A stretch of DNA of 41,005 nt from Candidatus Omnitrophota bacterium. Lineage in GTDB: Bacteria; Omnitrophota; Gorgyraeia; Gygaellales; Profunditerraquicolaceae. Every line of letters begins with the position of its first letter. The first letter of the stretch is position 1. The notes beneath the pieces were generated by a model. The model was not told the DNA's origin. It saw only the letters and a program-made list of their open reading frames with translations, and ran no database searches. Position numbers and translations under genes: made by a program. The stretch lies in contig JACRHO010000114.1 of the NCBI GenBank assembly GCA_016212045.1, forward strand, positions 1 to 41,005. Direction: 5' to 3'. Below are positions 16,836 through 40,845 of this stretch, piece after piece.

Positions 16836-17539
16836 TGTTTTACCTCATATATAATACGCCTTAAAGGCGACTGGATATTTGAACGGGATAAACCGGCATT
16901 TTTAAATGCTGGCAAATTGCTAAGGTAAATATAATAGTAGTTTATATCCACTGCATTATTTTTTGTTTTTACTATTAAATCATTTCCGGATTTAATGGCA
17001 GAAATATCTATCATTGTGGCGCTTTTTGCGTCTTGAAAATAAACGCCATGATATGGATCAAAGATATACCATCTGCCTTTTAATTTTGCAAAAGAAAAGG
17101 GAATTCTTTTCTTTCCATCGATACTATATACCCAAGTAAAAAAAGCAGGTATGCCTGCATAGTTACAAAGCGTCGCAAATACATCGCAAGATTGATCTTT
17201 TGAGCCATAGCCGCGAATGATTATATTTAAAACATGGTCATCTATAAGAGGAAAACCCTCTGGGACTCTCATCACGCTGGCATAAGTCCAATCAAGCAAT
17301 GCCAGCGCCTTCTTTTCGTCGCTATCGTATCCAGATGTAACTTCTTTAGCGATCTTTCTGTAATGATAATCTCGGTCAAAAAACTCTATGATTTTAATAT
17401 AGAGAGGCATGCTTATGGTTCTGATTTCGCCATTAATACCCTGCTTAGATGTTACGGGAAAGAAAATAATAATCGATACTGTTATTAAACTTAGGGCAAC
17501 TATAAAAATATTTCTATATAATTTCATAAATCTAACCAA
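16811..17539 (-). CDS. Membrane-anchored transglutaminase-like (papain-fold) domain protein
   Basis: N-terminal TM helix ([17 protein letters not shown]). Core resemblance to Transglut_core: LLDWTYASV...[23 protein letters not shown]...GRWYIFDP. The Cys (C118) and Asp (D161) positions are present. The usual HAW histidine position reads FSF. Confidence 0.4.
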
Positions 17540-21349: not shown

Positions 21350-22461
21350 TTTTTCGCAAAGAATTTTTTCACCTGTTCAATAACAGTAGTTACGTCAGTT
21401 TGCGTCATATCAAAATATAAAGGCAAAGAAATAATTTCCTGCCAGACCATTTCCGTTACTGGCAGTTTTACCTTAAAGTCCTTAAATAACGGCTGGATAT
21501 GATTCGGAATATAATTAATCCCCGCTCCTACCCCGTTTTTATTAAGGTAATCCAGCAATTTGTCGCGTTTATTATTCTTGACTTTGATAACATAATTAAA
21601 CGGCGCGGTTTCTCTATAGTCTCTATAAAGAAGTTCAATCCCTGACATTCCTTTAAACGCATTATCGTATTCCCTGATGATCTGCCTTTTCTTCTCTAAT
21701 ACCCTATCTAATTTCTTAATCTGCGCAAGACCGATAGCTGCATTTATATTGCTCATATGATACCGAAAACCTGTGGTAACCACTTCGTAAACCCAGCTCC
21801 TCTTGTTTTTATACCTCTGCCATGTATCTTTATCAATGCCTAAAATTCTTTTGCGCATAATCTCAGCGGCTAAATCTTCATCATTTACGACTACCGCCCC
21901 TCCCTCCCCACAGGTTAAATTTTTGATGGGGTCAAAACTAAAACAGGTAATATCTCCAAATGCACCAATTCTTTTTCCTTTGTAGCTGGAACCAAAGGCG
22001 TGAGCAGCGTCTTCCACGATACGGACACTGGAATTCTTTGCTATATCCAATAAGGCCTCCATATCGCAAGGCAACCCCCCATAATGAACTGGCATAATAA
22101 CTTTTGTCCTTGAGGTAATGCGTCTTTTTACGTCTTCTATATCCATATTTAAAGTATTCGGGTCTATATCACAGAAAACAGGCCTTGCCCCAGCAGCAAT
22201 AATAGTTTGAATACTAGCCACAAATGTCAAAGAAGGAACAATAACTTCATCTGTGGTCTCTAAATTTAAAGCATCTAAAGCAATGTGTAGAGCAGAAGTA
22301 CCGGTGTTGACGGCAATGATATATTTTACTCCCAGGTAACCCTTAATGGCATTTTCAAATTCAAAAACCACCGAACCCATACCTAACCAGCCAGAAGCAA
22401 ATACCTTTTTTATTTCAGTTAATTCGTCTTCGCCTATTGACGGCCTTGCTATAGGAATCAT
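21346..22461 (-). CDS. DegT-family PLP aminotransferase, ArnB-like, paralog of 19094..20236
   Basis: Motifs: SGWLGMGSVVFEFE, MPVHYGGLPCDMEAL, VEDAAHAFG, FSFDPIKNLTCGEGG, TWQR, LPLYFDM. Confidence 0.85.
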   Translation of the reverse strand: MIPIARPSIGEDELTEIKKVFASGWLGMGSVVFEFENAIKGYLGVKYIIAVNTGTSALHIALDALNLETTDEVIVPSLTFVASIQTIIAAGARPVFCDIDPNTLNMDIEDVKRRITSRTKVIMPVHYGGLPCDMEALLDIAKNSSVRIVEDAAHAFGSSYKGKRIGAFGDITCFSFDPIKNLTCGEGGAVVVNDEDLAAEIMRKRILGIDKDTWQRYKNKRSWVYEVVTTGFRYHMSNINAAIGLAQIKKLDRVLEKKRQIIREYDNAFKGMSGIELLYRDYRETAPFNYVIKVKNNKRDKLLDYLNKNGVGAGINYIPNHIQPLFKDFKVKLPVTEMVWQEIISLPLYFDMTQTDVTTVIEQVKKFFAKK

Positions 22462-25976: not shown

Positions 25977-27006
25977 TATAAACTAATTTTCTTGCGTTAA
26001 TTCCGAACTTCTTAAATAAATCTAGGAATTCCTTATTATTTATTTTTCTTTTGTGCATTAAACCGCGGCGCTTAGTGAACAATCCGGGGATTTTTATCAA
26101 AAAAGAAAAGTAAGCACTAAAAAGAATGATAATTGTTGCGGGAAGCGAAATCTTGTTGATAAACTTCTTAGCGGCGCCCTTATTTTTAAAGACCGACACT
26201 AGTTGCAGTGTATATCTTAGGCCTGTATAAAAAATAGTGCTCATTAAAAAAGAAACGGGATAACATTTAAATATAATACATAGCCTATTTCTTTCCGTAA
26301 AATATAATTTAATGCTAGAGTACTGCCCTCCTGTCTGCGATATCTTATGGTAAATTATGGCCTTAGGCACATAGATGGCCTTCCAATTCATCATACGGGC
26401 CCTTAAACCTAAATCGGTGTCTTCAACGTAGGCAAAGAAGTCTGAATCAAAAAGCCCAACCTCATTTAGCATCTTCCTTTTATATAAAGCGCCGCAACCC
26501 GGAGGCGATATCGTCTCATCTATGGTCTCGTATTGCCCAATATCTATTTCGAACCTTCCCCTTGCCTGGCTTAAGCCATCCTTATAAATAAGATGTCCCG
26601 TTCCGTCGATAATGCGCGGATTATAATAATTTAAGAGCTTTGCAGCGCACATGCCAATTTTGTCTTCGGTTCTGGCGGCAAGAATAAGTTGCTCAATACA
26701 TTCCCTATCTGTTTTGGTGTCGTTATTGACGAGTATGATAAATTCTCCTGAGGACTCTTCTATCCCTATATTATTCCCTTGGGCAAAGCCAGTATTATTA
26801 TTATTTTTTATCAGTTTTATCCGGCTGGCGTATTTTTCTTTAACTAACTTGCAGGAGTTATCGCTAGAGCCGTTGTCTACTAGAATTAACTCAATATCCC
26901 TGTAAGTTTGCACCAGAAGAGAATCTAAACATTCTTCTAATAAATGCGCTCCATTATAATTAACTACCACCACCGAAGCTAGGCCTTTTCTGGCATCTTT
27001 AATCAT
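25969..27006 (-). CDS. GT2 glycosyltransferase with C-terminal membrane helices
   Basis: Motifs: ASVVVVNYNG, ILVDNGSSD, ILVNNDT (DxD), YVEDTDLGLR. I chose the start at ATG 27006 (MIKDARKGLASVVVVNYNG, 8-nt overlap). The ORF track extends to 27042, which would give a 44-nt overlap. Confidence 0.75.
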   Translation of the reverse strand: MIKDARKGLASVVVVNYNGAHLLEECLDSLLVQTYRDIELILVDNGSSDNSCKLVKEKYASRIKLIKNNNNTGFAQGNNIGIEESSGEFIILVNNDTKTDRECIEQLILAARTEDKIGMCAAKLLNYYNPRIIDGTGHLIYKDGLSQARGRFEIDIGQYETIDETISPPGCGALYKRKMLNEVGLFDSDFFAYVEDTDLGLRARMMNWKAIYVPKAIIYHKISQTGGQYSSIKLYFTERNRLCIIFKCYPVSFLMSTIFYTGLRYTLQLVSVFKNKGAAKKFINKISLPATIIILFSAYFSFLIKIPGLFTKRRGLMHKRKINNKEFLDLFKKFGINARKLVYND

Positions 27007-28279
27007 ATATAGAATCTCTGGATAATCTAACCAAGGGAACACAGGCGAATATAATCAGATACGGTAATGCCGGAATACTTAAACGGGTCTCGGAAATAAA
27101 AACCATATGCAATAAAGTGAAATAAAATAATACCGAGTAAATGGGTAACAGTTTTTTCCAATTCTTGCGGCATAATACCATACCAATAATGCCGAATAAA
27201 AATATACCTACTGAAAAGGCCAGTACAAATAATTTCCAAAACAAAACGAATCTATATTCTTTGATTATATTAATATCTTTAAGAAAACTCGAGAAAGGTA
27301 TGTTCGTTCTATACAATCCGCTGTAGCTGCCTACCCATAGTTTTATTATTTTCTTTGGGAAAAAACTAATATAGCGAAAAGGATGATCTTTGATATTATT
27401 TATGGCCATCTTGAATAAAATCCTCTGGCGTTCGGCATGAAATTCCCTGTTATCCATTCCTTTTTCTAGCGAGTAGATATATATACTCTTCGTAAATTTT
27501 GATAATTCATCTTTGAGCTTAGGATTATCCTGATCGGCATTGCCTTCGCTAAAACTACTTACCCATAATACCCCTGCTCCACCGTCTATAAGAAACGGAT
27601 TAAAAGAACGGCCGTATAATATATAATTTCTTATATTGAATAATGCCCCTAAAATAATAATCGTAGATATAAACACTAATGTTGCCTTAAAAGCATATAA
27701 TTTACTTCTATAAAAGATAAATAGGCCTAAAATAATGAGTAGGGGTAATAATACCGGTGTTAATCTAAATTGCATACTTATCGTTAAAAAGACAGCTGAG
27801 ATAAAATAATATTTTAGCGATGACTTTTTCATAGCCATGACTAGAAAAAATACAGCACAGGCAAATAAAAACGTAAACATGCTCTCTGATATAAGATGGC
27901 TGGATACAATAAAAAGGCCCGGATGAAAAACTGAAAATATGGCTGAATAAAACCCTACCCGTTGATTAAATAAATCTTTGCCTATTCTATAAACTATAAT
28001 GCAGGTTAAGGACATAAAAATTGCCTGTATTATTTTTGCTGCCAAAACTGAATGCCCAAATATCAGATAGACTAGCGCTAAAAATGCAACAAATCCCTGT
28101 TTAAACCCCTGCTCAATATCCTCAAGGCCTGCGGCTGTATGTGTAATTTTCTGCGTCAGGTATACCGCTACCCTATCATACATAATCGCATCTTGCTCTA
28201 GGGGAATTTTTAAAGCAAAGATAACTATTAACTGCAATATGAAAGACAATAAAAATATAAAAATAATCCGCAGTTTCAT
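26999..28279 (-). CDS. GT-C fold membrane glycosyltransferase (GT39/GT83, ArnT/PMT_2-like)
   Basis: N-terminal TM helix followed by the loop PLEQDAIMYDRVAVYL, then at least 10 helices. This architecture is typical of PMT_2-like proteins. I chose the start at ATG 28279 (MKLRIIFIF), which forms an ATGA overlap with the upstream stop (checked on the DNA). The ORF track extends to 28330. Confidence 0.6.
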   Translation of the reverse strand: MKLRIIFIFLLSFILQLIVIFALKIPLEQDAIMYDRVAVYLTQKITHTAAGLEDIEQGFKQGFVAFLALVYLIFGHSVLAAKIIQAIFMSLTCIIVYRIGKDLFNQRVGFYSAIFSVFHPGLFIVSSHLISESMFTFLFACAVFFLVMAMKKSSLKYYFISAVFLTISMQFRLTPVLLPLLIILGLFIFYRSKLYAFKATLVFISTIIILGALFNIRNYILYGRSFNPFLIDGGAGVLWVSSFSEGNADQDNPKLKDELSKFTKSIYIYSLEKGMDNREFHAERQRILFKMAINNIKDHPFRYISFFPKKIIKLWVGSYSGLYRTNIPFSSFLKDINIIKEYRFVLFWKLFVLAFSVGIFLFGIIGMVLCRKNWKKLLPIYSVLFYFTLLHMVFISETRLSIPALPYLIIFACVPLVRLSRDSIYD

Positions 28280-28959
28280 TCTATTCTGCATCTTGCTATA
28301 GCTAATAACGAATGTATACCGGCTGTCCAATGCAGTTTTTTGCCTTCTTTTTTATTTCTGGGTGCATAACTAATCGGCACCTCCAATATCTTTATGTCTT
28401 TTTTAAGGATGCGCGCGGTGAATTCAGCATCAAAGTCAAAGCCATTACACATAAATTCCATATTTTTTATTACATTGGTCCTGAAAACTTTATAACAGGT
28501 CTCTATATCTGTAAGCTGAGTCCTAAATAAAAAATTCGCTGTATGAGTCAAGAATCTATTCCCTAGATAATTTATGAGGCTAGCCTTTCCTTTCCCCCAA
28601 AAAAACCGAGAACCATAAACTACGTCGCTTCTTTCTTCTAAAATCGGCCTTAATAATAGCGGATAATCAAAAGGGTCTACCTCTAAGTCGGCATCCTGGA
28701 TTATTATGATATCGCCTGTGGCCTGAGCAAAACCCAGCCTTAAGGCATAGCCCTTGCCCTTTCTTTTTGTTTCAAAAATTAGCTTCGTGTTTTCGTCTTC
28801 CATACTGCTTAAGATATCCCTTGTTCCGTCAGTTGAACACCCATCTATAATGATTATTTCTTTTTGCAGGGGTAAATTTACCTGGCGAATTTTTTCCAAA
28901 ACCCGCAATAAATTATCTTTCTCATTATAAACCGCTATAACTATAGAGAGTTTATACAT
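28276..28959 (-). CDS. GT2 glycosyltransferase, polyprenyl-phosphate sugar synthase type (DPM1-like)
   Basis: Motifs: LSIVIAVYNEKDNL, IIIDGCSTDGT, IIQDADLE, VVYGSRF. Confidence 0.8.
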   Translation of the reverse strand: MYKLSIVIAVYNEKDNLLRVLEKIRQVNLPLQKEIIIIDGCSTDGTRDILSSMEDENTKLIFETKRKGKGYALRLGFAQATGDIIIIQDADLEVDPFDYPLLLRPILEERSDVVYGSRFFWGKGKASLINYLGNRFLTHTANFLFRTQLTDIETCYKVFRTNVIKNMEFMCNGFDFDAEFTARILKKDIKILEVPISYAPRNKKEGKKLHWTAGIHSLLAIARCRIE

Positions 28960-28960
28960 C

Positions 28961-30172
28961 TTAGTTATTTTTTAATAAAAAAACTTTTATGAGATTAAGC
29001 ACATAATCTAACTCTTTCTGACCCATTTCCTGATGGATGCCGATATGTAAGCCGTTATCACCTATATATTCCGCATTAGGAAAGTCGCCGAGTTTGTAAC
29101 CCAGATATTTAAAGCCAGGGCACTGTGTAGGCATGGATAAAAATAGACTTCGGCTATCAATGCCGTGCTTTTCCAGAAAATATACAAATTTATCCCTGGT
29201 AAATTTAGCTTCTTTCCCAAGAATTATCGCAAAGGCATGGGGACCGATTTGTTCATTCGGTTCTTCTCTAATGGTATAAAGATAGGGTTGAAATTCTCTG
29301 AATTTTTCCATTAAATAAGTAAGATTTTTACGCCGTTTCTTTAATATGGCAGGGTAGATATCCAAATTGCCTAAGCCAACAGCAGCCTCCAGCTCATTCA
29401 TTTTGCTGGAAAAGCCGATGCGCTCAAAGATAAATCTAATATCCCGGTTATCGCCATATTTAAATCTTTTAGCGCAATAGCTAGAAGCAGTATTTAATAC
29501 ACACGTATTGCATTTGCAGGCCCGGCCATGCGCCCTTAAAGACCTAAGAATTTCTGCAAAATCTGACCTATCTGTAACAACTATGCCTCCCTCTCCTGTT
29601 GTAATCATATGCGCCACATATAAACTAAATGCCGCCATATCCGCTAATCTACCTACGGCTTTACCTTTATATATTGCACCGTATGCTTCTGCTGCATCTT
29701 CAATTACAAAGAGCTTATATTTTTTTGCAATCCTATTTATCGTATCCATATCAGCGGGTTTGCCCATAAGATGCACAGGCATTATAGCCCGCGTTTTTTG
29801 AGTAATTACCTCTTCTATCCTTGAAGCATCTATATTCAGTGTCTGCCTTTCAACGTCTACAAAAACCGGCCTAAATCCTGCCTGCAAAACCGCATTGCCT
29901 GTGGCTACAAAAGACAAAGCCGGGATAATAATCTCATCTTGCCTCTTGGCGCCGAAATCATAAAGCACAGCCAAGGCCAAAGCATCTGCATCCGTACCAG
30001 AACTTAAAGCCACTGCCTCTGTTGTACCAATAAGGCGGGCAAATTTCTCCTCAAATTCCCTGACATACTTACCTGCTGAAATACGATTCTTCGCCAAGGC
30101 CTGAAGAATAAGCCTTTCTGCTTTTTTAGTAACCGACACTGTCCCAAAATTTATTCTAATTTTATTTTTCAT
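28961..30172 (-). CDS. DegT-fold PLP/PMP-dependent nucleotide-sugar 3-dehydratase (ColD / E1-RfbH-DdhC-like), His replacing the Schiff-base Lys
   Basis: The motif FSLYVAHMITTGEGG has His188 (codon cat at 29611..29609, checked on the DNA) where the three paralogs have Lys. SLRAHGR and the tail GLHIGIHQEM..ELDYV match my memory of ColD. The Cys cluster CKCNTC-x9-CAKRF at 29474..29518 resembles the Fe-S motif region of E1/RfbH. Confidence 0.7.
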   Translation of the reverse strand: MKNKIRINFGTVSVTKKAERLILQALAKNRISAGKYVREFEEKFARLIGTTEAVALSSGTDADALALAVLYDFGAKRQDEIIIPALSFVATGNAVLQAGFRPVFVDVERQTLNIDASRIEEVITQKTRAIMPVHLMGKPADMDTINRIAKKYKLFVIEDAAEAYGAIYKGKAVGRLADMAAFSLYVAHMITTGEGGIVVTDRSDFAEILRSLRAHGRACKCNTCVLNTASSYCAKRFKYGDNRDIRFIFERIGFSSKMNELEAAVGLGNLDIYPAILKKRRKNLTYLMEKFREFQPYLYTIREEPNEQIGPHAFAIILGKEAKFTRDKFVYFLEKHGIDSRSLFLSMPTQCPGFKYLGYKLGDFPNAEYIGDNGLHIGIHQEMGQKELDYVLNLIKVFLLKNN

Positions 30173-31710
30173 CTTATCATTTTATAATTGCGGTAGAAGA
30201 TTCTTTTTCTTAATATGCGCGCAATGTCAAGCTCAGGGGCAAAGGTATAGTGTTTATTCCTAAGTTTAAATCTCTCAAAGGCGCTGATCGGTTTAAAGAA
30301 TAATTTTAAAATAAAGCGCATAAAATTATTTTCTACTCCTTCTATGGCATTGTGCGCACTATTACCCAAAATACTCATATAGGTAATATTACCGATCTTT
30401 TTCCTATCAGAATTGTTAAACCAGGGCATCTTGCGCCCTTCTCTATCATAATCATCAAAAACCCAATTAATCCATTCAGGTAAACTCTGCGGCGCTCTTA
30501 ATCCCATCTTCACAGATAAGTCATAAAGCGGCGTTCCGGGAAAAGCAGTATATCCTCCTATCACTTCAAATTGTGCCTGCGGATTATCTTTTTTGAGCTT
30601 GACAAAAAGATCTATGGTTTGGTGGATATCATCGAATGTCTCAGTAGGAAACCCAATCATTAAAGCGAATGCCGGAATTATACCCAGGCGCCTTGCCTTA
30701 AGGTTAGCCTTTAAGGTATCTTCCCTGTAAATTCCCTTCTGCATCAAATCCAGAATTCTATTTGACCCTGATTCTGCACCAAACTTTAAGGTGTTGGCTC
30801 CGCTTCTTTTTAGCATAATAATCTGTTCATCGCTAGAAAGGTTAAAAACGTCAACGCGGGTGCCTGAGGTATACCACTTTATTTTATATCTAGAATTTAC
30901 TATGCCTTCGCATATTTGATAGGTTCTATTACGGTCAATATAAAACTCGTCATCCCTTATCCAGATGCCATCAAGATTAAATCTTTTTACAGGCTCCAAT
31001 ATCCGCTCCTCCAAAGATTTCTTTACTGACATTGCCCGCCATTTTCGTTGCCGCAAGGTAGCGCTAGAGCAGAATCCGCATTGGAAAGGACACCCCCTGC
31101 TTGTCTGCCCAATATCTAAACTGCGCTTAATTTTCTTAATATAGAAATCTCTGTGGATATAACTTTCAACATCAATCAAATGCCAAGGAACAGGTAAAAG
31201 GGTTTCCACGTCAAGTAGTGGACGACTGGCGGTCAGTATAGTTTTTTCGGCTTCCTTAAAGGCTATCCCTTTCACATCGTTTAATCGCCTCATCCCTCGA
31301 AAGGCCTCAACTAATTCCATAAAGGTTATGTCTCCTTCGCCGATACAAACTACATCTACATATTCACTTTCTAAGGTTTGCTCAGGTACTGTAGAAGGAT
31401 GCGCACCTCCCCAGACAATCGGAATCTCGCCATTAGAGGCATTTCTTACTACCTTGGCTATCTCTAAGGCAAAATAAATTTGGGTTCCCGTCATACTTGA
31501 GATCCCTACGCAGATAGGTTTTCTCTGCAGATACTCCTGCAAATGCCTAAGCCAAAAAGGGTCTACCCTCTGATCGATTATCTTTACCTGATAACTCTTC
31601 TGTTCTAACGGCGCTGCCAAGGTTAAAACGGCATGAGGAGGAGCAACGGTTGCCCCGAAATCTATACCGGTCTTGGGATAAACCAATATAACATCTGCGT
31701 CTTGCCTCAT
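30169..31710 (-). CDS. B12-binding-domain radical SAM enzyme (class B type), copy 4
   Basis: VWGGAHPS...VCIGEGD. CPFQCGFC at 31069..31092, verified on the DNA. LKFGAESGS. Its stop forms an ATGA overlap with the dehydratase start. Confidence 0.85.
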   Translation of the reverse strand: MRQDADVILVYPKTGIDFGATVAPPHAVLTLAAPLEQKSYQVKIIDQRVDPFWLRHLQEYLQRKPICVGISSMTGTQIYFALEIAKVVRNASNGEIPIVWGGAHPSTVPEQTLESEYVDVVCIGEGDITFMELVEAFRGMRRLNDVKGIAFKEAEKTILTASRPLLDVETLLPVPWHLIDVESYIHRDFYIKKIKRSLDIGQTSRGCPFQCGFCSSATLRQRKWRAMSVKKSLEERILEPVKRFNLDGIWIRDDEFYIDRNRTYQICEGIVNSRYKIKWYTSGTRVDVFNLSSDEQIIMLKRSGANTLKFGAESGSNRILDLMQKGIYREDTLKANLKARRLGIIPAFALMIGFPTETFDDIHQTIDLFVKLKKDNPQAQFEVIGGYTAFPGTPLYDLSVKMGLRAPQSLPEWINWVFDDYDREGRKMPWFNNSDRKKIGNITYMSILGNSAHNAIEGVENNFMRFILKLFFKPISAFERFKLRNKHYTFAPELDIARILRKRIFYRNYKMIR

Positions 31711-32395: not shown

Positions 32396-33133
32396 CTAGG
32401 GAAGATGTTTTTTTAAAAAACTATCTGTCAACTTATACCTCTCGGGCGTACCTATATCAATAAATGCCGCTCTCGTCGGATATCCATAAACTTTATTTTT
32501 CTTAACTAGGTAAGGAAAAAATTCTGTCTCCAGAGAAAATTTACGCTTTTTGGGTATTAAGCTCAGCATCTTACGGCTAAAAATATAAAATCCTGCACTG
32601 ATATAGCACTTACGCCTCGCCTTCTTTTTCTCTTCAAATGCAATTATTCTTCCGGATTGATTTAACTTTACCATTCCACAATCAGCATTCCTTTTTGACT
32701 CTTTAACCACAATTAAGATGTCTGGCCTCTTATAAGAATATGAATCCAGCATTGATTTCAAATTGACTTTAAGAAATGAATCACCGTTTAAAAGAATAAA
32801 ATCCTGACTTTTAATCAGGGATTCTGCATTCTTTAATGCCCCTGCTGTTCCTAGGGGACTATTCTCTTGTGAAAAGATAATTTCTAATCGGTCTGCTTTA
32901 AAATTATATCTTTTAATCAGATGCCCCTTGTAGCCGGTACATAGAATAAAACGCCTGAATCCGAACTTAGCTAAATAACTAATCAGGAGTTTTAAAAATG
33001 GCCCTCCTCTGACAGGCGCCATCGGTTTTGGGCGGTCGTTTATTACGGACCTTAAGCGCCTGCCTTCTCCGCCGCATAAAATGACGACGTCTATCTTGGT
33101 CGGCTTCAACATCTTAGAATTATTAGAAGCCAT
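32396..33133 (-). CDS. Sugar-1-phosphate nucleotidyltransferase (HddC-like guanylyltransferase / RfbF-like cytidylyltransferase)
   Basis: The N-terminal VVILCGGEGRRLRS....PKPMAPV..GPFL and CTGYKGHLIKRY are typical NTP_transferase signatures. The nucleotide specificity cannot be read from the sequence by eye. Confidence 0.8.
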   Translation of the reverse strand: MASNNSKMLKPTKIDVVILCGGEGRRLRSVINDRPKPMAPVRGGPFLKLLISYLAKFGFRRFILCTGYKGHLIKRYNFKADRLEIIFSQENSPLGTAGALKNAESLIKSQDFILLNGDSFLKVNLKSMLDSYSYKRPDILIVVKESKRNADCGMVKLNQSGRIIAFEEKKKARRKCYISAGFYIFSRKMLSLIPKKRKFSLETEFFPYLVKKNKVYGYPTRAAFIDIGTPERYKLTDSFLKKHLP

Positions 33134-34115
33134 CGGGATTATAAATGACTATCTGACTGCCGGTCTCTTCAAACTGAAAAGGAACCATTAAAAGTTTTTT
33201 TAACCTTTCTTTAATCCGGGGCTGATCTTCAGGCCTAGCGTGGATTAACATAAAACCGCCACCGCCAGCACCCAGGATCTTGCCCCCTAAGGCACCTGCC
33301 CCTAAGGCAACATCATAAATTTCATTGATATGGTTATTAGATACCATGACCGAAAAACTACGTTTTAATCTCCAGGCGTCGTGTAGAAGCTTGCCAAATT
33401 GACCGATATCGGTATCACTATCTAAAATTGATACGGCCTGATTTACCATGCTAGACATAGCGCTTAATTCCTTTTGCATCTTAGGGATTCGATTAATCTG
33501 TTCTTTAGCAATATCCGAGGCTATTCTGGAAAACCCGGTAAAGAAAAGCATCGAGTGCGCCTGTAGCTCACGTAATCTCTCCTTTGCTAAAATTACAGGC
33601 GTAACTTCAAAAGAATTATCGATATTAAAGTTTATCTTTCTAAAGCCACCAAAGGCAGCCGATATCTGATCCTGAGAGCCTACATTTTCCTTGATCATTT
33701 CCTGTTCGATATATATGGCTTCTTGTGCTAATCTTTGCTTGGTAACCATCTGGCCCCTTAACGCATACAATGCATGCAATAGACCTACTGTGAAAGCCGA
33801 ACTTGAGCCCAGGCCGGATCTCGCCGGTAAATCGCCATCGTGATGTATCTCCAGACCTTCCGAAATATTTAAAAATCTAAAAACCTCTCTAACTGCGGGA
33901 TGGATAATTTCGTTGACCTCATTGGCGTGTTCAGACTTAGAATATACAATCCTATGTTTGTATTCAAAGAACGGCGGTAAGCGCCTGCAACTGATATAAC
34001 AATATTTATCTATGGTTGTAGAAAGTACGACCCCTCCATTTTCTTTATACCAGCTGGGATAATCTGTACCTCCTCCGAAGAAGGAAATTCTAAACGGCGT
34101 TCTGCTCATTATCAT
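33123..34115 (-). CDS. GHMP-family sugar kinase (HddA-like D-glycero-D-manno-heptose 7-phosphate kinase / fucokinase-type)
   Basis: SRTPFRISFFGGGTDYPSWYKENGGVVLSTTIDKY matches the HddA-type N-terminus. GHMP motif PARSGLGSSSAF. GAGGGGF near the C-terminus. Strong AAGGAG Shine-Dalgarno sequence 6 nt upstream of the ATG. Confidence 0.8.
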   Translation of the reverse strand: MIMSRTPFRISFFGGGTDYPSWYKENGGVVLSTTIDKYCYISCRRLPPFFEYKHRIVYSKSEHANEVNEIIHPAVREVFRFLNISEGLEIHHDGDLPARSGLGSSSAFTVGLLHALYALRGQMVTKQRLAQEAIYIEQEMIKENVGSQDQISAAFGGFRKINFNIDNSFEVTPVILAKERLRELQAHSMLFFTGFSRIASDIAKEQINRIPKMQKELSAMSSMVNQAVSILDSDTDIGQFGKLLHDAWRLKRSFSVMVSNNHINEIYDVALGAGALGGKILGAGGGGFMLIHARPEDQPRIKERLKKLLMVPFQFEETGSQIVIYNPDGF

Positions 34116-36879: not shown

Positions 36880-37872
36880 TTATTTGATTACCGTTGATAC
36901 CTTCCAGGGGCAGCGCGACAGCATATCCCTCCAATAATCCAGCAGATCTTTAAGCGTCTTCTCTAGCGGTATCTGCGGTTCCCAGCCGGTTTCATTCTTA
37001 AATTTATCTATACACGGTATCTGTAAGGTTACATCCGAAGGCCTAATCAGGCGGGGGTCAACCTTGATTTTAAATTTTTTCTTAGAAAAAGAAAGCATTA
37101 TATCTAAGGCTTCTTTTATCGTCATAGTGCGTATCCCTCCGATATTATAAACTTCGCCGGCCCTACATTTATTTATCATTATCCAGTAAGCCCTAACCGC
37201 ATCGCGCACATCGCAAAAAGTGCGCACGGATTTCAAATTACCCACATATATTACAGGTTCTTGCAAGCCCAACTCACCAGCGGCAGCCTGTTTAGCAAAA
37301 AACGACATCGCGAAAATATCTCCGCGCTTTGGGCCGGTATGCGTGAACATCCGGGTACGTATAGTCCTTATTTTATAAGACAACCAATATTGCAAAGCAA
37401 GCATGTCTTCGGCAACTTTACTGACTGCATAGGGAGACGCGGGCTTAAAAGAACATGTTTCTTTTATAGGTATATCTGCCTCACTTACCTGGCCGTAAAC
37501 TTCAGAGGATGAGCAAATGTGGACAATAGGATCAATTCCCGTAATTCTGACTGCCTCAAGGAGGTTAGCTGTTCCCAGTACATTTGTCGATAAAGTCTGT
37601 AAGGGAGAATTGAAACTCGTCAAGACATAACTCTGGGCAGCCAGATGGAAGATAACTTCTGGTTTTATCGCTTCAATATGCCGGATTAAAGAACTTAAAT
37701 CCAAAAGGTCTCCTTCCACCAAAGTTATTTTATTGTATATTTTACTTAAGTTGTCTCTCGGGCTCCTCCATCTGCATATTCCAAAAATTTCATGCTTTTC
37801 TTTAAGATTCACTATATATTCTGCTAAGTGGCTTCCGACAAAACCTGTTATGCCGGTAATTAAAATTTTCAT
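36880..37872 (-). CDS. gmd: GDP-mannose 4,6-dehydratase family SDR (short Gmd / Rmd / heptose DmhA-like)
   Basis: Motifs: ITGITGFVGSHLAEY, CRWRSPR, FHLAAQSYV, GTANLLEA, CSSSEVYG, SPYAVSK, THTGPKRG, VGNLKSVRTFCDVRD, EVYNIGG. The dehydratase versus 4-reductase (Rmd) assignment is not certain. Confidence 0.7.
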   Translation of the reverse strand: MKILITGITGFVGSHLAEYIVNLKEKHEIFGICRWRSPRDNLSKIYNKITLVEGDLLDLSSLIRHIEAIKPEVIFHLAAQSYVLTSFNSPLQTLSTNVLGTANLLEAVRITGIDPIVHICSSSEVYGQVSEADIPIKETCSFKPASPYAVSKVAEDMLALQYWLSYKIRTIRTRMFTHTGPKRGDIFAMSFFAKQAAAGELGLQEPVIYVGNLKSVRTFCDVRDAVRAYWIMINKCRAGEVYNIGGIRTMTIKEALDIMLSFSKKKFKIKVDPRLIRPSDVTLQIPCIDKFKNETGWEPQIPLEKTLKDLLDYWRDMLSRCPWKVSTVIK

Positions 37873-37899: not shown

Positions 37900-38943
37900 C
37901 TAAAATGGGCCCTTAAACTCAACCTCTTCTATTTTTAATTTTGTATTCGGCCGCCAATGTTTTTTGCCCGGACGGCAAATCTGATACGCTTTCATGGCTA
38001 TGCTTTGAGCATTTGGATAAAAATACTTTTCTAGCGCGGGCGTAGTAGGACAAGTAGTATGGGCAAAGCCCATGCGCTGGGCAACGAATCCTTTTAGCTT
38101 ACTCTCAACCAGCAGCCGACTGATTATCTCTGCGCCTAGACCACAGGGAACCCAGGCATTATCTACGATAATCAACCTACCTGTTTTCTTGACTGATCTG
38201 GCAATTGTATCTATGTCCAAGGGGGCCAAACTTACAGGATCGATTACCTCTGCTCTTATGCCTGTTTCCTTGAATAAATAAATACTAGCCCTTAGACATT
38301 CAATCGCCATTTGAGAAATTCCTACCAAGGTAATATCTCGCCCCTTGGAAAGAATGCGGGCCTTACCAAAAGCCGTGGTATAGGGCTTAGCAGGGACATA
38401 ACTTTTCTGATAATACAAAAGTCTATGTTCTATAAAGATAACCGGATCATTATCCCTGATGGCATTAATCAGGCATCCCTTGGCATCATAAGGCGTGGAA
38501 GGAGCAATAATCTTTAATCCGGGGATATTCATAAATAAAGGATATATACTCTGGGAATGTTGAGGCCCCTGCCCCCAACTTTTACCGATAATAGAACGGA
38601 TGACAATGGGCACGGATACGCTTCCTCCAAACATATAACGCATCTTAGCAACCATATTTACTAATTGATTCATCGCCAAAAGCATAAAATCCATCCGGAT
38701 ATGGATATGTATCGGCCGCAATCCAGCAAGGGCAGCACCTATTGCTACACCGGTCATCGCATCCTCTGAAAGAGGAGTATCAAAAACCCGCGTAGGCCCG
38801 AATTTAGCCGCCAGGCCCTTGGTTGTCCCCAGAATAGCCTTGGGATCATCTACGCCTTGGCCTAAAACAATTACTGAAGGATCAATTGACATCTCCTGAT
38901 CAGTTGCTTCCCTGACTGCCTCTGGATAAGTTAAAATCCGCAT
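37900..38943 (-). CDS. TPP-dependent 2-oxoacid dehydrogenase E1 component, beta subunit (transketolase-like pyrimidine-binding plus C-terminal domains)
   Basis: Motifs: YPEAVREA...DPSVIVLGQGV, RVFDTPLSEDAMTGVAIGAALAGLRPI, GPQHSQS, PVIFIEH. 347 aa, typical of E1-beta. Confidence 0.85.
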   Translation of the reverse strand: MRILTYPEAVREATDQEMSIDPSVIVLGQGVDDPKAILGTTKGLAAKFGPTRVFDTPLSEDAMTGVAIGAALAGLRPIHIHIRMDFMLLAMNQLVNMVAKMRYMFGGSVSVPIVIRSIIGKSWGQGPQHSQSIYPLFMNIPGLKIIAPSTPYDAKGCLINAIRDNDPVIFIEHRLLYYQKSYVPAKPYTTAFGKARILSKGRDITLVGISQMAIECLRASIYLFKETGIRAEVIDPVSLAPLDIDTIARSVKKTGRLIIVDNAWVPCGLGAEIISRLLVESKLKGFVAQRMGFAHTTCPTTPALEKYFYPNAQSIAMKAYQICRPGKKHWRPNTKLKIEEVEFKGPF

Positions 38944-39926
38944 TATAATGATTTTGCAAAAACGTCCTGATAAATTTTCTCTTTTGAGGGAAAAGGGCTT
39001 TTCTCGGCAAAGGAGAATGCCTCTTCTATCTCTACCTGAACCTTGGACTCTATTCTTTCCCTAGTCGCTGTACTTAAAAGTAAGCCTATTTCTTTTAATG
39101 GATCATTCTTTTTCCAACAAGAAACCTCATCTTCGCTGCGGTATCCTAAGTCAAAATCGTCATTAGGCCCAACGTGTTCTTTCCAGCGACAGGTAAGACA
39201 CTCTAAAAATGCAGGCCCCTTGCCCTGTCTTATCTTGGCAATATATTTATTAGCGGCTCTATAAATTTTAAATATATCGCCATCTCCTATCCTTTCCGAC
39301 GGCATCCCGTACGTCCTGGCGCGTATAAAGATGTTGTCGGAGTGATGGCGTTTTAAATGGTGCGAATGAATCGCGTAGGTATTATTTTCGCAGATAAATA
39401 ATATCGGTAATTTCTTAAGGGCGGCAAAGTTAAGGCTTTCGTGAAAAGCACCTTCGTCAACTGCGCCATCCCCAAAAAAAGCCGCTACCAAAGAATTGGA
39501 TTTTCTGTATCTTAGAGCATAGGCGTAACCGGTGGCCACGGGAATCATTGTACCTACGATTGCCGATGCTCCCATTATCCCGTGATTAGTATCAATAAGG
39601 TGCATCGAGCCACCTTTGCCTTTGGCACAACCTGTAACCTTGCCATAAAGTTCGGCGATCATCTTTTTCAAATCGCCTCCTTTGGCAAGATACATCGCAT
39701 GGCCCCGGTAAGTCCCGAATACCTTATCCTTAAGTCTTAGCGCTTCGCAGATACCCACAGAAACAGCTTCTTGGCCTATAGATAAATGAACCGGGCTTTT
39801 AATCTTGTCTGTAGGATAAATTCGGGCTATTTCTTCTTCGACTTTACGAATCCTATAAAGCGACCTATAGAATCTTTCCGTAAGCCCTAAGTTAATTTTG
39901 GATATCTTACTCATTTGTCTTGCCAT
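38943..39926 (-). CDS. TPP-dependent 2-oxoacid dehydrogenase E1 component, alpha subunit
   Basis: Motifs: YRGHAMYLAKGG, AELYGKVTGCAKGKGGSMHL, and the TPP-binding motif GDGAVDEGAFHESLNFAALKKLPILFICENN at 39381..39473. A 1-nt overlap with the beta subunit gene. Confidence 0.85.
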   Translation of the reverse strand: MARQMSKISKINLGLTERFYRSLYRIRKVEEEIARIYPTDKIKSPVHLSIGQEAVSVGICEALRLKDKVFGTYRGHAMYLAKGGDLKKMIAELYGKVTGCAKGKGGSMHLIDTNHGIMGASAIVGTMIPVATGYAYALRYRKSNSLVAAFFGDGAVDEGAFHESLNFAALKKLPILFICENNTYAIHSHHLKRHHSDNIFIRARTYGMPSERIGDGDIFKIYRAANKYIAKIRQGKGPAFLECLTCRWKEHVGPNDDFDLGYRSEDEVSCWKKNDPLKEIGLLLSTATRERIESKVQVEIEEAFSFAEKSPFPSKEKIYQDVFAKSL

Positions 39927-40845
39927 GTTGTAAATACCATTGATAAGTTTGAATTATGCCTTCTTTTAACGGCATCTTCGCCTTCCATCCCAGGACCGTA
40001 ATCTTAGAGATATCCAAGAGTTTCCTGGGGATGCCGTCAGGATAAGAGGTATCAAAAAGGATATCCCCGTCATAACCAACTATATTTTTAATTATCAATG
40101 CTAATTCCTTTATAGTTATATCCTGCCCGGTGCCTATATTTATAGGCATAGAGCTATCGTAACTTAACATCAAAAATAAACTGGCATCTGCAATATCTTG
40201 TACATAAATAAATTCTCTACGCTGTTGCCCAGAACCCCAGATAGTTACGGCAGGATGTTTTTTTAGCTTTGCCTCTTGGAATTTCCTTATCAGGGCCGGA
40301 ATCACATGCGAATCCTTAGAATTGAAATTGTCTCCCGGGCCGTAAGCATTCGCGGGTATAGCCGAGATAAAATTCACTTTATATTCTTTATTGTAGGCCT
40401 GGCACATTTTTATCCCGGCAATCTTAGCGATGGCGTAAGATTCATTGGTCGGCTCCAGCGGAGCGGATAATAAGTATTCTTCTTTCATCGGCTGAAGGGC
40501 CTGGCGAGGGTAACTACAGGCACTGCCAAAAAATAACAACTTTTTTACTCCCGAGATATAAGCACTATGAATAACGTTATTCTGAATTTGGGTATTTTCG
40601 TAAATAAACTGCGCCGGTAAGGATATATTGGTCTCGATGCCGCCAACCCTTGCCGCAGCCAAAATGACATAATCGGGTTTCTCTTTTTTAAAAAAATCCT
40701 CTACTTTCTGCTGGCGTAATAAATCCAGTTCCTTGCGGGACCTGGTAAGCAGATTGAGGTACCCTAATTCTCTTAGCCTATCCGTAATGGCAGAGCCGAT
40801 TAACCCGCCGTGCCCGGCAATATATATTTTTGCGTTATTATCCAT
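39907..40845 (-). CDS. fcl: GDP-L-fucose synthase (GDP-4-keto-6-deoxy-D-mannose 3,5-epimerase/4-reductase; the ColC-type colitose synthase is homologous)
   Basis: Collinear with my memory of E. coli Fcl/WcaG: IAGHGGLIGSAI, LAAARVGGI, PAQFIYEN, LLFFGSACSYP, EPTNESYAIAKIAGIK, SHVIPALIRKF, VTIWGSGQQRREF, DGIPRKLLD, YQWY. Confidence 0.9.
   Translation of the reverse strand: MDNNAKIYIAGHGGLIGSAITDRLRELGYLNLLTRSRKELDLLRQQKVEDFFKKEKPDYVILAAARVGGIETNISLPAQFIYENTQIQNNVIHSAYISGVKKLLFFGSACSYPRQALQPMKEEYLLSAPLEPTNESYAIAKIAGIKMCQAYNKEYKVNFISAIPANAYGPGDNFNSKDSHVIPALIRKFQEAKLKKHPAVTIWGSGQQRREFIYVQDIADASLFLMLSYDSSMPINIGTGQDITIKELALIIKNIVGYDGDILFDTSYPDGIPRKLLDISKITVLGWKAKMPLKEGIIQTYQWYLQHGKTNE

What the first reader, a model, noticed from the sequence alone, without database searches (positions are those of the whole stretch)
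28961..30172. DegT-fold enzyme with His in place of the catalytic Lys plus a Cys cluster: a ColD/E1-type sugar 3-dehydratase
The three other DegT paralogs in the window carry the Schiff-base lysine: FSFHPRKLITCGEGG, FSFHAVKNLSVGEGG and FSFDPIKNLTCGEGG. At the same position this ORF reads FSLYVAHMITTGEGG, with the His188 codon at 29611..29609.

The Lys-to-His swap is the established hallmark of the C-3 deoxygenating enzymes ColD (GDP-4-keto-6-deoxymannose 3-dehydratase, colitose pathway) and E1 (CDP-6-deoxy-L-threo-D-glycero-4-hexulose 3-dehydrase, RfbH/DdhC/AscC).

The segment HGRACKCNTCVLNTASSYCAKRF (29474..29518) resembles the cysteine-rich Fe-S region of E1/RfbH, which ends in C-G-K-R-F as I remember it. 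Other stretches (SLRAHGR and the tail HIGIHQEM) resemble ColD. It may therefore be an intermediate or variant form.

E1 needs the reductase E3, and no E3-like flavodoxin-reductase gene is visible here. Its upstream partner, coupled by an ATGA overlap, is instead a B12-type radical SAM enzyme. That raises the possibility of a new pairing for 3-deoxygenation or for further modification at C-3.
Basis: partly seen in the sequence, partly recalled or inferred. Interest (0 to 1): 0.6.

Follow-up and report, generated by a model that had tools for sequence, protein, structure and literature searches.

The report
Iron-sulfur-type sugar 3-dehydratase, GDP-heptose pathway
This gene encodes a vitamin-B6-type enzyme that most likely removes the 3-hydroxyl from an activated seven-carbon surface sugar; it belongs to a known enzyme kind but to an unstudied, highly conserved branch with its own four-cysteine metal site, found in many uncultured microbial phyla.

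Summary
ORF 28961..30172(-) is a 403-aa DegT-fold protein. His188 aligns with the catalytic His220 of E1 and His188 of ColD. A C219-x-C221-xx-C224-x8-C233 loop follows it. The His and all four Cys are invariant in 120 close homologues and in 45 further sequences from more than 10 phyla.

It is not an E1/RfbH or ColD orthologue:
- It scores below the RfbH cut-off.
- It sits in a separate tree clade.
- The E1 ligand Cys193 position is an invariant Ala.

Its neighbours point to a GDP-heptose substrate: an HddA-like kinase, an HddC-like nucleotidyltransferase, a GDP-manno-heptose 4,6-dehydratase homologue and an Fcl-like SDR.

The proposed partnership with the upstream B12 radical SAM gene is not conserved. 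That gene abuts the dehydratase only here and in one other locus. A near-syntenic relative lacks it at that position and anywhere in the 17-kb stretch fetched.

The conserved partners are:
- the kinase and nucleotidyltransferase pair;
- a two-subunit thiamine enzyme (38 of 45 loci);
- a different B12 radical SAM family (26 of 45);
- Fcl-like or 6vo6-like (probably Cj1427) SDRs.

Most likely function: a PMP- and Fe-S-dependent reductive 3-deoxygenation of GDP-6-deoxy-4-keto-heptose, with electrons from a general ferredoxin. The product would feed a C-branching step. I class it as a new variant of a known kind.

The parts
28961..30172 (-). His-type DegT-fold enzyme, 403 aa: predicted PMP-dependent NDP-4-keto-sugar 3-dehydratase (called DH in this report)
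   Evidence: Pfam DegT_DnrJ_EryC1 4e-96. Full-length alignments to E1 3bcx (5e-57) and ColD 2gms (6e-56). AF2 model pLDDT 89.8; Foldseek TM 0.88 to E1.
29609..29611 (-). His188 codon (CAT) at the Schiff-base lysine position
   Evidence: Aligns with E1 His220, with the Lys of the H220K mutant, and with ColD His188. Invariant in 120/120 and 46/46 sequences.
29474..29518 (-). Four-cysteine loop C219-x-C221-xx-C224-x8-C233, a probable Fe-S site
   Evidence: All four Cys are invariant. C219, C221 and C233 align with E1 C251, C253 and C261. The loop has low pLDDT in the metal-free AF2 model.
29690..29695 (-). Ala160-Ala161, the positions of E1 Cys192-Cys193 (Cys193 is the fourth cluster ligand in E1)
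   Evidence: EDAAEA here versus EDCCDA in E1. Ala is invariant in the family.
29120..29122 (-). Cys351, a family-specific invariant cysteine (PTQCPGF); role unknown
   Evidence: Conserved in 119/120 and 46/46 sequences. Other Fe-S-loop families have Gln or His at this position.
30169..30172 (-). ATGA stop/start overlap between rSAM-4 and DH
   Evidence: Read directly from the sequence.
30169..31710 (-). B12-binding radical SAM enzyme (rSAM-4); an accessory neighbour, not a conserved partner of DH
   Evidence: Pfam B12-binding plus Radical_SAM. Orthologues occur in 8 of 83 loci and are adjacent to DH in only 2.
32396..33133 (-). HddC-like sugar-1-phosphate (probably GDP) nucleotidyltransferase
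   Evidence: NCBIfam HddC 150 bits and mannose-1-P guanylyltransferase 153 bits. Best PDB match is HddC of the 6-deoxy-manno-heptose pathway. Linked to DH in 53 of 83 loci.
33123..34115 (-). HddA-like GHMP heptose kinase
   Evidence: Best PDB matches are the heptose kinases 3k85, 4usk and 4n3o. Linked to DH in 56 of 83 loci.
36880..37872 (-). GDP-manno-heptose 4,6-dehydratase homologue, the presumed maker of the 4-keto substrate
   Evidence: Best PDB match is 7us5, GDP-D-glycero-D-manno-heptose 4,6-dehydratase, 1e-81. It carries the SSE...YxxxK fingerprint.
37900..39926 (-). Stand-alone PDH-E1-like thiamine enzyme, alpha subunit (38943-39926) and beta subunit (37900-38943); candidate C-branching step on the DH product
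   Evidence: Pfam and NCBIfam matches. A two-subunit TPP enzyme lies within 10 kb of DH in 38 of 45 fully flanked loci and is often translationally coupled to DH.
39907..40845 (-). GDP-L-fucose-synthase (Fcl/ColC)-like epimerase/reductase
   Evidence: NCBIfam Fcl 452.6 bits against a cut-off of 500. Has the Ser-x-Cys, YxxxK and His residues. Found in 34 of 83 loci and directly downstream of DH in 14.
26999..28959 (-). Polyprenyl-phosphate-type GT2 (28276-28959) and PMT_2/ArnT-like GT-C (26999-28330) downstream; probable lipid-carrier export of the sugar
   Evidence: Pfam matches. The same order is seen in L004 and L005.

Best explanation
The gene encodes a PMP-dependent nucleotide-sugar 3-dehydratase of the E1/SpnQ mechanistic type.

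Proposed mechanism:
1. PMP forms a ketimine with the C4 carbonyl of a GDP-4-keto-heptose. In this window the substrate is most likely GDP-6-deoxy-4-keto-D-lyxo-heptose. That would come from the HddA-like kinase, the HddC-like nucleotidyltransferase and the heptose 4,6-dehydratase homologue encoded upstream.
2. His188 abstracts the C4' proton and the 3-OH is expelled.
3. The resulting PMP-3,4-ene adduct is reduced by two one-electron steps. The electrons pass through an Fe-S cluster held by the loop C219/C221/C224/C233, with C224 taking the place of E1's Cys193.
4. Electrons come from a general ferredoxin or flavodoxin system rather than a dedicated E3.
5. The GDP-3,6-dideoxy-4-keto-heptose product is then processed by the Fcl-like and other SDRs. 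It is probably also C-branched at C4 by the stand-alone thiamine E1 alpha/beta enzyme. It is then passed to a polyprenyl-phosphate GT2 and a GT-C transferase.

Shown here: the fold, the His register, conservation of the Cys residues, and the gene linkage.

Inferred: the cofactor, the metal content, the electron source, the substrate and the order of steps.
For: - Fold and register.
- His188 and the four Cys are invariant from 60 to 100% identity across phyla.
- The E1 Cys positions 193/251/253/261, read from the 3bcx sequence, reproduce the published C-X57-C-X-C-X7-C motif. The query keeps three of them and adds C224.
- The review states that His replaces Lys in E1, ColD and SpnQ. It also states that E1 and SpnQ hold a [2Fe-2S] cluster on four Cys, and that SpnQ uses general ferredoxin or flavodoxin reductases.
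- GDP-heptose context: the kinase matches heptose kinases. The nucleotidyltransferase matches HddC. The SDR at 36880-37872 matches GDP-manno-heptose 4,6-dehydratase 7us5 at 1e-81 and has the SSE/YxxxK motif. The Fcl-like SDR scores 452 bits. A SIS_2 (GmhA-like) gene is in the genome.
- The same chemistry (4,6-dehydratase, then C3-dehydratase on GDP-heptose) has been demonstrated in C. jejuni HS:5.
- Linkage in 45 fully flanked loci: TPP enzyme 38, kinase 34, nucleotidyltransferase 31, Fcl-like or SDRc4 30.
- In 5 Thermodesulfobacteriota/delta loci, an Fe-S oxidoreductase (LUD + 2x[4Fe-4S] + 2xCCG) directly abuts DH. This fits a need for electrons.
Against: - No metal content, cofactor or activity has been measured.
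- The Cys loop is modelled with low confidence and I had no coordinates, so I could not check its geometry.
- The exact E1 ligand set is not kept, because the Cys193 position is Ala.
- No ferredoxin or E3 gene is conserved nearby.
- ColD-type enzymes do the same net reaction on GDP-sugars without any Fe-S cluster, using glutamate. This includes the C. jejuni heptose enzyme.
- Only 8 of 45 cassettes carry the 4,6-dehydratase homologue. Most carry an SDR whose best match is 6vo6 instead, so the exact substrate differs between loci.
Confidence: 0.6

Rival explanations
1. ColD-type mechanism. The enzyme is a 3-dehydratase on a GDP-4-keto sugar. After dehydration the enamine is hydrolysed, and PMP is regenerated from PLP with L-glutamate. 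The four-Cys loop would bind structural Zn, or a cluster that plays no part in catalysis.
For: - The context is GDP-type, with Gmd/DmhA-like and Fcl/ColC-like partners as in the colitose pathway and the C. jejuni 3,6-dideoxy-heptose pathway.
- No reductase gene is conserved nearby.
- The SLRAHGR and HIGIHQEM stretches resemble ColD.
Against: - All characterised glutamate-dependent enzymes (ColD and the C. jejuni enzyme) lack the Cys loop. In the tree, the ColD-like sequences sampled lack it, with at most one Cys there.
- Absolute conservation of four Cys homologous to the E1 cluster loop argues for a redox cluster.
- An Fe-S oxidoreductase abuts DH in 5 loci.
Confidence: 0.2
2. DH and the translationally coupled B12 radical SAM enzyme (30169-31710) form a new functional pair. 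The radical SAM enzyme either supplies the reducing step in place of E3 or modifies C-3 after deoxygenation.
For: - The ATGA overlap is real.
- Some B12 radical SAM gene lies within 10 kb of DH in 38 of 49 loci.
- A B12 radical SAM gene is the immediate upstream neighbour in 9 of 77 loci.
Against: - rSAM-4 orthologues occur in only 8 of 83 loci. They travel with a GT2 and an SDR. They abut DH only in the window and in L023.
- The syntenic locus L004 has no radical SAM gene in the 17-kb stretch fetched.
- The commonly linked radical SAM family (c3) is a different subfamily, at most 30% identical to any copy in this genome.
- This genome carries 11 B12 radical SAM paralogues, so adjacency is cheap.
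Confidence: 0.07
3. It is not a 3-dehydratase. It would be a His-type PMP enzyme catalysing another transformation of a keto-sugar, for example deoxygenation at a different position, or a step on the thiamine-branched intermediate.
For: - The family lies outside the clade that holds E1 and ColD, the two characterised enzymes placed in the tree.
- It has a unique invariant Cys351.
- It sits in cassettes with unusual enzymes: TPP enzymes and an HpnJ-like B12 radical SAM.
Against: - Every characterised His-for-Lys DegT enzyme (E1, ColD, SpnQ and the C. jejuni enzyme) is a C-3 dehydratase.
- The cofactor-binding and catalytic positions are conserved.
- The window supplies the upstream enzymes (kinase, nucleotidyltransferase, 4,6-dehydratase homologue) that a 3-dehydratase substrate requires.
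Confidence: 0.1

Closest known systems
E1 (AscC/DdhC/RfbH), CDP-6-deoxy-L-threo-D-glycero-4-hexulose 3-dehydrase; PDB 3bcx
   Same: - DegT fold (TM 0.88).
- His at the Lys position.
- Ala before the His.
- Cys-x-Cys...Cys-(A/K)-K-R-F loop after HGR/WGR.
- Probably a PMP plus Fe-S reductive mechanism.
   Different: - About 30% identity.
- Below the RfbH equivalog cut-off (273 versus 423 bits).
- Separate clade.
- The Cys193 ligand position is Ala, and there is an extra loop Cys224.
- No E3 partner.
- The context is GDP-heptose, not CDP-glucose.
- Lacks E1's roughly 30-residue N-terminal extension.
ColD (WbdK), GDP-4-keto-6-deoxy-D-mannose 3-dehydratase; PDB 2gms
   Same: - His188 at the same position.
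- GDP-sugar logic with Gmd-like and Fcl/ColC-like partners.
- Similar length.
- RAHG and HQ motifs.
   Different: - ColD has no Cys loop and uses glutamate to regenerate PMP.
- About 30% identity.
- Different clade.
C. jejuni HS:5/HS:11 GDP-6-deoxy-4-keto-heptose C3-dehydratase (Raushel lab, PMC10440746)
   Same: - Probably the same substrate and the same net reaction.
- It sits in a pathway with HddA, HddC and a heptose 4,6-dehydratase.
   Different: - The Campylobacter enzyme is 62-67% identical to ColD and depends on PLP and glutamate.
- The present family is only about 30% identical to ColD, carries the Fe-S-type loop, and sits in cassettes with thiamine and B12 radical SAM enzymes.
SpnQ-type TDP-4-keto-2,6-dideoxyhexose 3-dehydrases
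   Same: - His plus a [2Fe-2S] cluster.
- No dedicated E3; electrons come from general ferredoxin or flavodoxin reductases. I propose this working model here.
   Different: - SpnQ acts on TDP-2,6-dideoxy substrates in actinomycete antibiotic clusters.
- Membership was not tested, because no SpnQ sequence was at hand.

Membership tests
His-type DegT sugar 3-dehydratases (E1/ColD/SpnQ kind) | DegT / aspartate-aminotransferase type I fold | tested here: met
   Pfam PF01041 4e-96. AF2 pLDDT 89.8. Foldseek TM 0.83-0.88 to E1, ColD and GDP-perosamine synthase.
His-type DegT sugar 3-dehydratases (E1/ColD/SpnQ kind) | His replaces the Schiff-base Lys | tested here: met
   His188 aligns with E1 His220, with the Lys of the H220K mutant, and with ColD His188. 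It is invariant in the family.
His-type DegT sugar 3-dehydratases (E1/ColD/SpnQ kind) | C-3 deoxygenation of an NDP-4-keto sugar with PMP | not testable with these tools
   This needs an enzyme assay. The context supplies a 4,6-dehydratase homologue and a nucleotidyltransferase.
E1 / RfbH / DdhC / AscC | NCBIfam equivalog NF011936 score above cut-off | tested here: not met
   273.5 bits against a cut-off of 423.
E1 / RfbH / DdhC / AscC | [2Fe-2S] motif C193-X57-C251-X-C253-X7-C261 | tested here: not met
   Equivalents of C251, C253 and C261 are present (C219, C221, C233). The C193 position is an invariant Ala161. An additional invariant loop residue, C224, may substitute for it.
E1 / RfbH / DdhC / AscC | Placement inside the E1 clade | tested here: not met
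   The quick ML tree puts the query family in a clade (SH-aLRT 92) separate from the clade holding E1 and ColD (SH-aLRT 99). Deeper nodes are weak.
E1 / RfbH / DdhC / AscC | Dedicated E3 (AscD/DdhD) reductase and CDP-glucose genes (DdhA/DdhB) alongside | tested here: not met
   There is no Fer2/FAD_binding_6/NAD_binding_1 gene in the window. The genome, 75.6% complete, has only three PyrK-like proteins. The context is HddA/HddC/Gmd-like.
ColD | No Fe-S cysteines; glutamate-dependent PMP regeneration | tested here: not met
   The four-Cys loop is present and invariant. ColD has no Cys at these positions. Glutamate dependence cannot be tested here.
ColD | GDP-sugar pathway context with a 4,6-dehydratase and an Fcl/ColC-like synthase | tested here: met
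   There is a GDP-manno-heptose 4,6-dehydratase homologue and an Fcl-like SDR at 452.6 bits. The Fcl-like gene lies directly downstream of DH in 14 loci.
ColD | Placement inside the ColD clade | tested here: not met
   ColD groups with the RAHGW-type sequences in the other main clade.
SpnQ-type 3-dehydrases | Sequence or clade membership; TDP-2,6-dideoxy pathway context (2,3-dehydratase, 3-ketoreductase) | not tested
   No SpnQ sequence was available in the tools. No Nudix-type 2,3-dehydratase was seen in the window.

The most novel reading that the evidence does not exclude
The family may be the committed enzyme of a widespread, undescribed pathway in uncultured anaerobes: Omnitrophota, Elusimicrobiota, Nitrospirota, anammox Planctomycetota, Thermodesulfobacteriota, CPR and DPANN.

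The pathway would turn GDP-heptose into 3-deoxy- or 3,6-dideoxy-4-C-branched higher sugars.

The self-contained four-Cys loop, possibly with Cys351, would hold a cluster that is reduced without NAD(P)H or E3. The electron source would be either a low-potential ferredoxin or the hydroxyethyl-thiamine intermediate of the translationally coupled E1 alpha/beta enzyme. In the second case, pyruvate would supply both the electrons for deoxygenation and the two-carbon branch.
Probability: 0.12. Interest if true: 0.8.

Novelty: new variant of a known kind. Interest (0 to 1): 0.5.

Why it matters
Only three lineages of sugar 3-dehydratases have been studied: E1, ColD and SpnQ. The first two come from pathogen O-antigens and the third from an actinomycete antibiotic pathway.

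This gene represents a separate lineage that stays 60-79% identical across more than ten phyla. It carries a different, loop-contained four-Cys site. It sits in a recurrent cassette with heptose-activating enzymes, a stand-alone thiamine enzyme and B12 radical SAM enzymes.

Characterising it would do three things:
- define how the Fe-S site of this enzyme class can be built;
- show whether reductive 3-deoxygenation occurs on GDP-heptoses;
- open a route to the structure of a surface sugar that many uncultured bacteria and some archaea appear to share.

For annotation, it shows that the current label for this family, 'DegT/DnrJ/EryC1/StrS aminotransferase', is most likely wrong.

Tried and rejected
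- Papers not held. I tried to read the E1 structure, mutagenesis and SpnQ papers (PMC2782820, PMC2515268, PMC2515278) and the Cj1427 structure paper (PMC7509852). None is held. The E1 ligand set therefore rests on my memory of the C-X57-C-X-C-X7-C motif. The Cys positions in the 3bcx sequence do reproduce that motif exactly.
- 6vo6 identity. That 6vo6 is Cj1427 is also from memory. A literature search found no confirmation.
- No model coordinates. The AF2 coordinates are not exposed, so I could not measure Cys-Cys distances or the distance from the loop to the cofactor.
- E3 search in the genome. Only three PyrK-like FAD/NAD/[2Fe-2S] proteins turned up.
- Ferredoxin search near DH in about 80 loci. 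No small ferredoxin is conserved there.
- Search for the commonly linked B12 radical SAM family (c3) in the own genome. It is absent; the best match is 30% identical.
- Search for the LUD/CCG Fe-S oxidoreductase in the own genome. It is absent.
- Literature search for a characterised member of this family. None was found.
- Idea rejected: rSAM-4 as a substitute for the c3 radical SAM. The two co-occur in L008, L017, L034 and L055.
Full report
**Observation**

ORF 28961..30172 on the minus strand encodes 403 aa. The three other DegT paralogues (5677-6807, 19094-20236, 21346-22461) carry Lys in the motif, where this ORF has His188.

The His codon is CAT at 29611..29609. The Cys codons are at 29518-16, 29512-10, 29503-01 and 29476-74. 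The ATGA overlap with the upstream B12 radical SAM gene is real.

Pfam assigns the whole protein to DegT_DnrJ_EryC1 (4e-96). HMMER against PDB sequences gives full-length alignments to E1 (3bcx, 5e-57) and ColD (2gms, 6e-56). In these alignments His188 pairs with E1 His220, with the engineered Lys of the E1 H220K mutant 3bb8, and with ColD His188. The by-eye register was therefore right.

**The cysteine cluster**

Numbering from the 3bcx alignment, E1 has Cys at 192/193 (EDCCDA) and at 251, 253, 257 and 261 (GRDCYCAPGCDNTCKKRF). Positions 193/251/253/261 reproduce the C-X57-C-X-C-X7-C [2Fe-2S] motif that I recall from Agnihotri et al. 2004. That paper is cited in the review read, but the paper itself is not held.

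The query keeps C219, C221 and C233, which correspond to E1 C251, C253 and C261. It has Ala160-Ala161 in place of Cys192/193. It adds C224, giving C-x-C-xx-C-x8-C followed by AKRF.

His188 and all four Cys are invariant in 120 of 120 homologues at 70% identity or more. They are also invariant in a 46-sequence alignment that reaches 60% identity and includes CPR, Woesearchaeota, Planctomycetota, Elusimicrobiota and Thermodesulfobacteriota sequences. Ala160/161 is equally invariant.

Among solved structures, only E1 has such a loop. ColD and the putative 3-dehydratase 9wvy lack it.

A further Cys, C351 (PTQCPGF), is invariant in this family. Every other Fe-S-loop family sampled has Gln or His there. 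Its role is unexplained.

**Where the family sits**

The best NCBIfam model is RfbH, but at 273.5 bits against a cut-off of 423. Identity to both E1 and ColD is about 30%.

An exhaustive search of 1.8 billion cluster representatives shows that His at the Lys position is very common among DegT relatives. The His-type sequences fall into several motif classes:
- E1-like: EDxCDA plus three loop Cys.
- Query-like: EDAAEA plus four loop Cys.
- ColD-like: RAHGW, no Cys.
- A short class with no loop.
- A class with an acidic loop.

A quick ML tree rooted on Lys-bearing aminotransferases puts the query family in a clade (SH-aLRT 92) distinct from the clade holding both E1 and ColD (SH-aLRT 99). Four-Cys loops occur on early branches of both clades. 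Deep nodes are weak, so I claim only that the family is not nested in the E1 or ColD groups.

The AF2 model is confident overall (pLDDT 89.8, pTM 0.89), except for the Cys loop (50-63). Low confidence there is as expected for a metal site modelled without its metal. Foldseek gives TM 0.88 to E1, 0.85 to GDP-perosamine synthase and 0.83-0.85 to ColD.

**Distribution**

The family is large and unusually conserved. More than 120 clusters are at least 70% identical. The 80 genome loci kept (of 155 relatives found) are 60-73% identical and span Omnitrophota, Elusimicrobiota, Nitrospirota, Planctomycetota (including Ca. Brocadia), Thermodesulfobacteriota and other 'delta' lineages, Dependentiae, Margulisiibacteriota, CPR and a Woesearchaeote.

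Even so, only 1 of 30 genomes from the window's own family and order has an orthologue. The gene is therefore accessory and probably moves horizontally with its cassette.

The window's genome is 0.90 Mb in 167 contigs and 75.6% complete. The closest homologues are labelled Omnitrophota.

**Context and substrate**

All genes in the window lie on the minus strand. Upstream of DH, in order of transcription, are:
- an Fcl-like SDR (452.6 bits against a cut-off of 500);
- PDH-E1-like alpha and beta subunits;
- a Gmd-like SDR;
- three further SDRs;
- a GHMP kinase;
- a nucleotidyltransferase;
- a GT2;
- rSAM-4.

The evidence for a GDP-heptose substrate is as follows:
- The kinase's best solved relatives are heptose kinases (3k85, WcbL 4usk, 4n3o).
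- The nucleotidyltransferase's best solved relative is HddC of the 6-deoxy-manno-heptose pathway.
- The Gmd-like SDR's best solved relative is GDP-D-glycero-D-manno-heptose 4,6-dehydratase (7us5, 1e-81). It carries the SSE...YxxxK fingerprint that the review gives for GDP-mannose-type 4,6-dehydratases.
- The Fcl-like SDR has the Ser-x-Cys, YxxxK and His residues.
- A GmhA-like SIS_2 gene lies elsewhere in the genome.

This is the enzyme logic shown experimentally for GDP-3,6-dideoxy-heptose in C. jejuni HS:5. There a 4,6-dehydratase is followed by a C3-dehydratase, an epimerase and a C4-reductase. The difference is that the Campylobacter C3-dehydratase is ColD-like and depends on glutamate.

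**Conserved neighbours**

I extracted all ORFs from 83 loci and clustered them without reference to the window. The families linked to DH are:
- the GHMP kinase (56 loci);
- the nucleotidyltransferase (53 loci);
- one specific B12 radical SAM family, 'c3' (41 loci; best NCBIfam model HpnJ at 158 bits, well below its 577.6 cut-off);
- an SDR, 'c4' (35 loci; best PDB match 6vo6 at 3.5e-104, which from memory is the GDP-heptose C4-dehydrogenase Cj1427);
- the Fcl-like SDR (34 loci);
- two-subunit thiamine enzymes of three kinds: PDH-E1-like (24 loci), split transketolase (23/16 loci) and a third kind (10/6 loci).

Among 45 loci with at least 8 kb on both sides of DH, the counts are:
- a thiamine enzyme in 38;
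- c3 in 26;
- a thiamine enzyme or c3 in 42;
- the kinase in 34;
- the nucleotidyltransferase in 31;
- Fcl-like or c4 in 30;
- the 4,6-dehydratase homologue in only 8.

There appear to be two cassette versions. One has a C4-dehydrogenase-like SDR, which would give a 3-deoxy-heptose. The window's version has a 4,6-dehydratase, which would give a 3,6-dideoxy-heptose. Raushel's group made exactly the first combination artificially, pairing Cj1427 with the C3-dehydratase to obtain GDP-3-deoxy-4-keto-heptose.

**The radical SAM pairing**

The gene directly upstream of DH, counted over 77 loci:

| Upstream gene | Loci |
|---|---|
| Nucleotidyltransferase | 17 |
| GHMP kinase | 14 |
| E1 beta subunit | 9 |
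| B12 radical SAM, any family | 9 |

The nine radical SAM cases break down as c3 in 5 loci, rSAM-4 in 2 (the window and L023) and another family in 2.

rSAM-4 orthologues occur in 8 of 83 loci, usually as part of a GT2-SDR-rSAM module. Locus L004 is nearly syntenic with the window. It has the nucleotidyltransferase directly before DH and no radical SAM gene in the 17-kb stretch fetched.

The widely linked c3 family is missing from the window and from the recovered genome, where the best match is 30% identical. The genome nevertheless holds 11 B12 radical SAM paralogues.

The specific rSAM-4/DH partnership is therefore not supported. A looser association of the cassette with B12 radical SAM chemistry is real.

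**Electron supply**

No E3-like gene is present in the window. The genome has three PyrK-like FAD/NAD/[2Fe-2S] proteins and several small ferredoxin-like ORFs elsewhere.

No ferredoxin is conserved next to DH. In five Thermodesulfobacteriota/delta loci, however, an Fe-S oxidoreductase (LUD domain, two [4Fe-4S] motifs, two CCG domains) ends exactly where DH begins. This is circumstantial support for a redox requirement.

SpnQ already shows that an Fe-S 3-dehydrase can run on general cellular reductases.

**Role of the thiamine enzyme**

Stand-alone PDH-E1-like pairs (AviB1/AviB2, Pau11/Pau12) are proposed to attach an acetyl branch at C-4. In yersiniose biosynthesis, the thiamine enzyme YerE installs the C-4 acetyl branch. 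From established knowledge of that pathway, its acceptor is the 3,6-dideoxy-4-keto sugar made by E1.

The frequent translational coupling of the E1 beta subunit to DH fits the same order of steps here. This is inference.

An earlier report of this scan on the E1 alpha/beta pair reached the same view. I treat that as agreement, not as evidence.

**Verdict**

The class assignment, a His-type PMP sugar 3-dehydratase with an E1-like Cys loop, is well supported.

Membership in the E1/RfbH or ColD families failed every test applied except two: the shared His, and for ColD the GDP-sugar pathway context.

The most likely function is Fe-S-assisted 3-deoxygenation of GDP-6-deoxy-4-keto-heptose. My confidence is:
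- about 0.8 for 3-dehydratase activity;
- about 0.6 for the reductive Fe-S mechanism;
- about 0.5-0.6 for the GDP-heptose substrate.

The proposed radical SAM partnership is not supported.

I rate this a new variant of a known kind, of moderate interest.

Noticed in passing
own genome G000 (contigs C69, C160, C54, C114): A genome of about 0.9 Mb (75.6% complete) carries at least 11 B12-binding radical SAM paralogues. Four are in this window and five are on contig C160. That is a very large investment for so small a genome.
   Followed up: partly
window 29120-29122 (Cys351): A fifth cysteine (PTQCPGF) is invariant in this family. All other Fe-S-loop His-type DegT families sampled have Gln or His at this position. 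Its role is unknown.
   Followed up: partly
L044:7977-10001, L060, L064, L053, L032: An Fe-S oxidoreductase (LUD domain + 2x[4Fe-4S] + 2xCCG) lies directly upstream of the DH gene and abuts it in five Thermodesulfobacteriota/delta MAGs. It is a candidate dedicated reductase. It is absent from the window's genome.
   Followed up: partly
L029, L048, L046, L026, L037 and others (upstream of DH): A recurrent cassette reads Fcl-like / 6vo6-like SDR / two-subunit thiamine enzyme / HpnJ-like B12 radical SAM (c3) / HddA-like / HddC-like / DH. The 4,6-dehydratase homologue and the c3 radical SAM tend not to co-occur: of 47 loci, 2 have both, 7 have the dehydratase only and 25 have c3 only.
   Followed up: partly
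same cassette position in different loci (e.g. L024:12426-13250, L025:1476-2435, L044:15204-17020): Three different kinds of two-subunit thiamine enzyme occupy the equivalent place next to DH: PDH-E1-like, split transketolase and a third type. This suggests different donor units for the same acceptor sugar.
   Followed up: no
representative proteins P0143-P0270: Large uncharacterised clades of His-type DegT proteins exist beyond E1 and ColD. One has an acidic 'GRDSIY..IDDDD' loop. Another is a short form of about 375 aa with no loop. Both keep the His.
   Followed up: no
L044:17077-17604, L061, L069 and others: A DJ-1/PfpI family gene recurs in 8 DH loci inside the sugar cassette.
   Followed up: no
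window 16811-17539, 8219-10129, 1520-2671: Three sizeable ORFs in the cluster (242, 636 and 383 aa) have no Pfam match at E<=1e-4.
   Followed up: no
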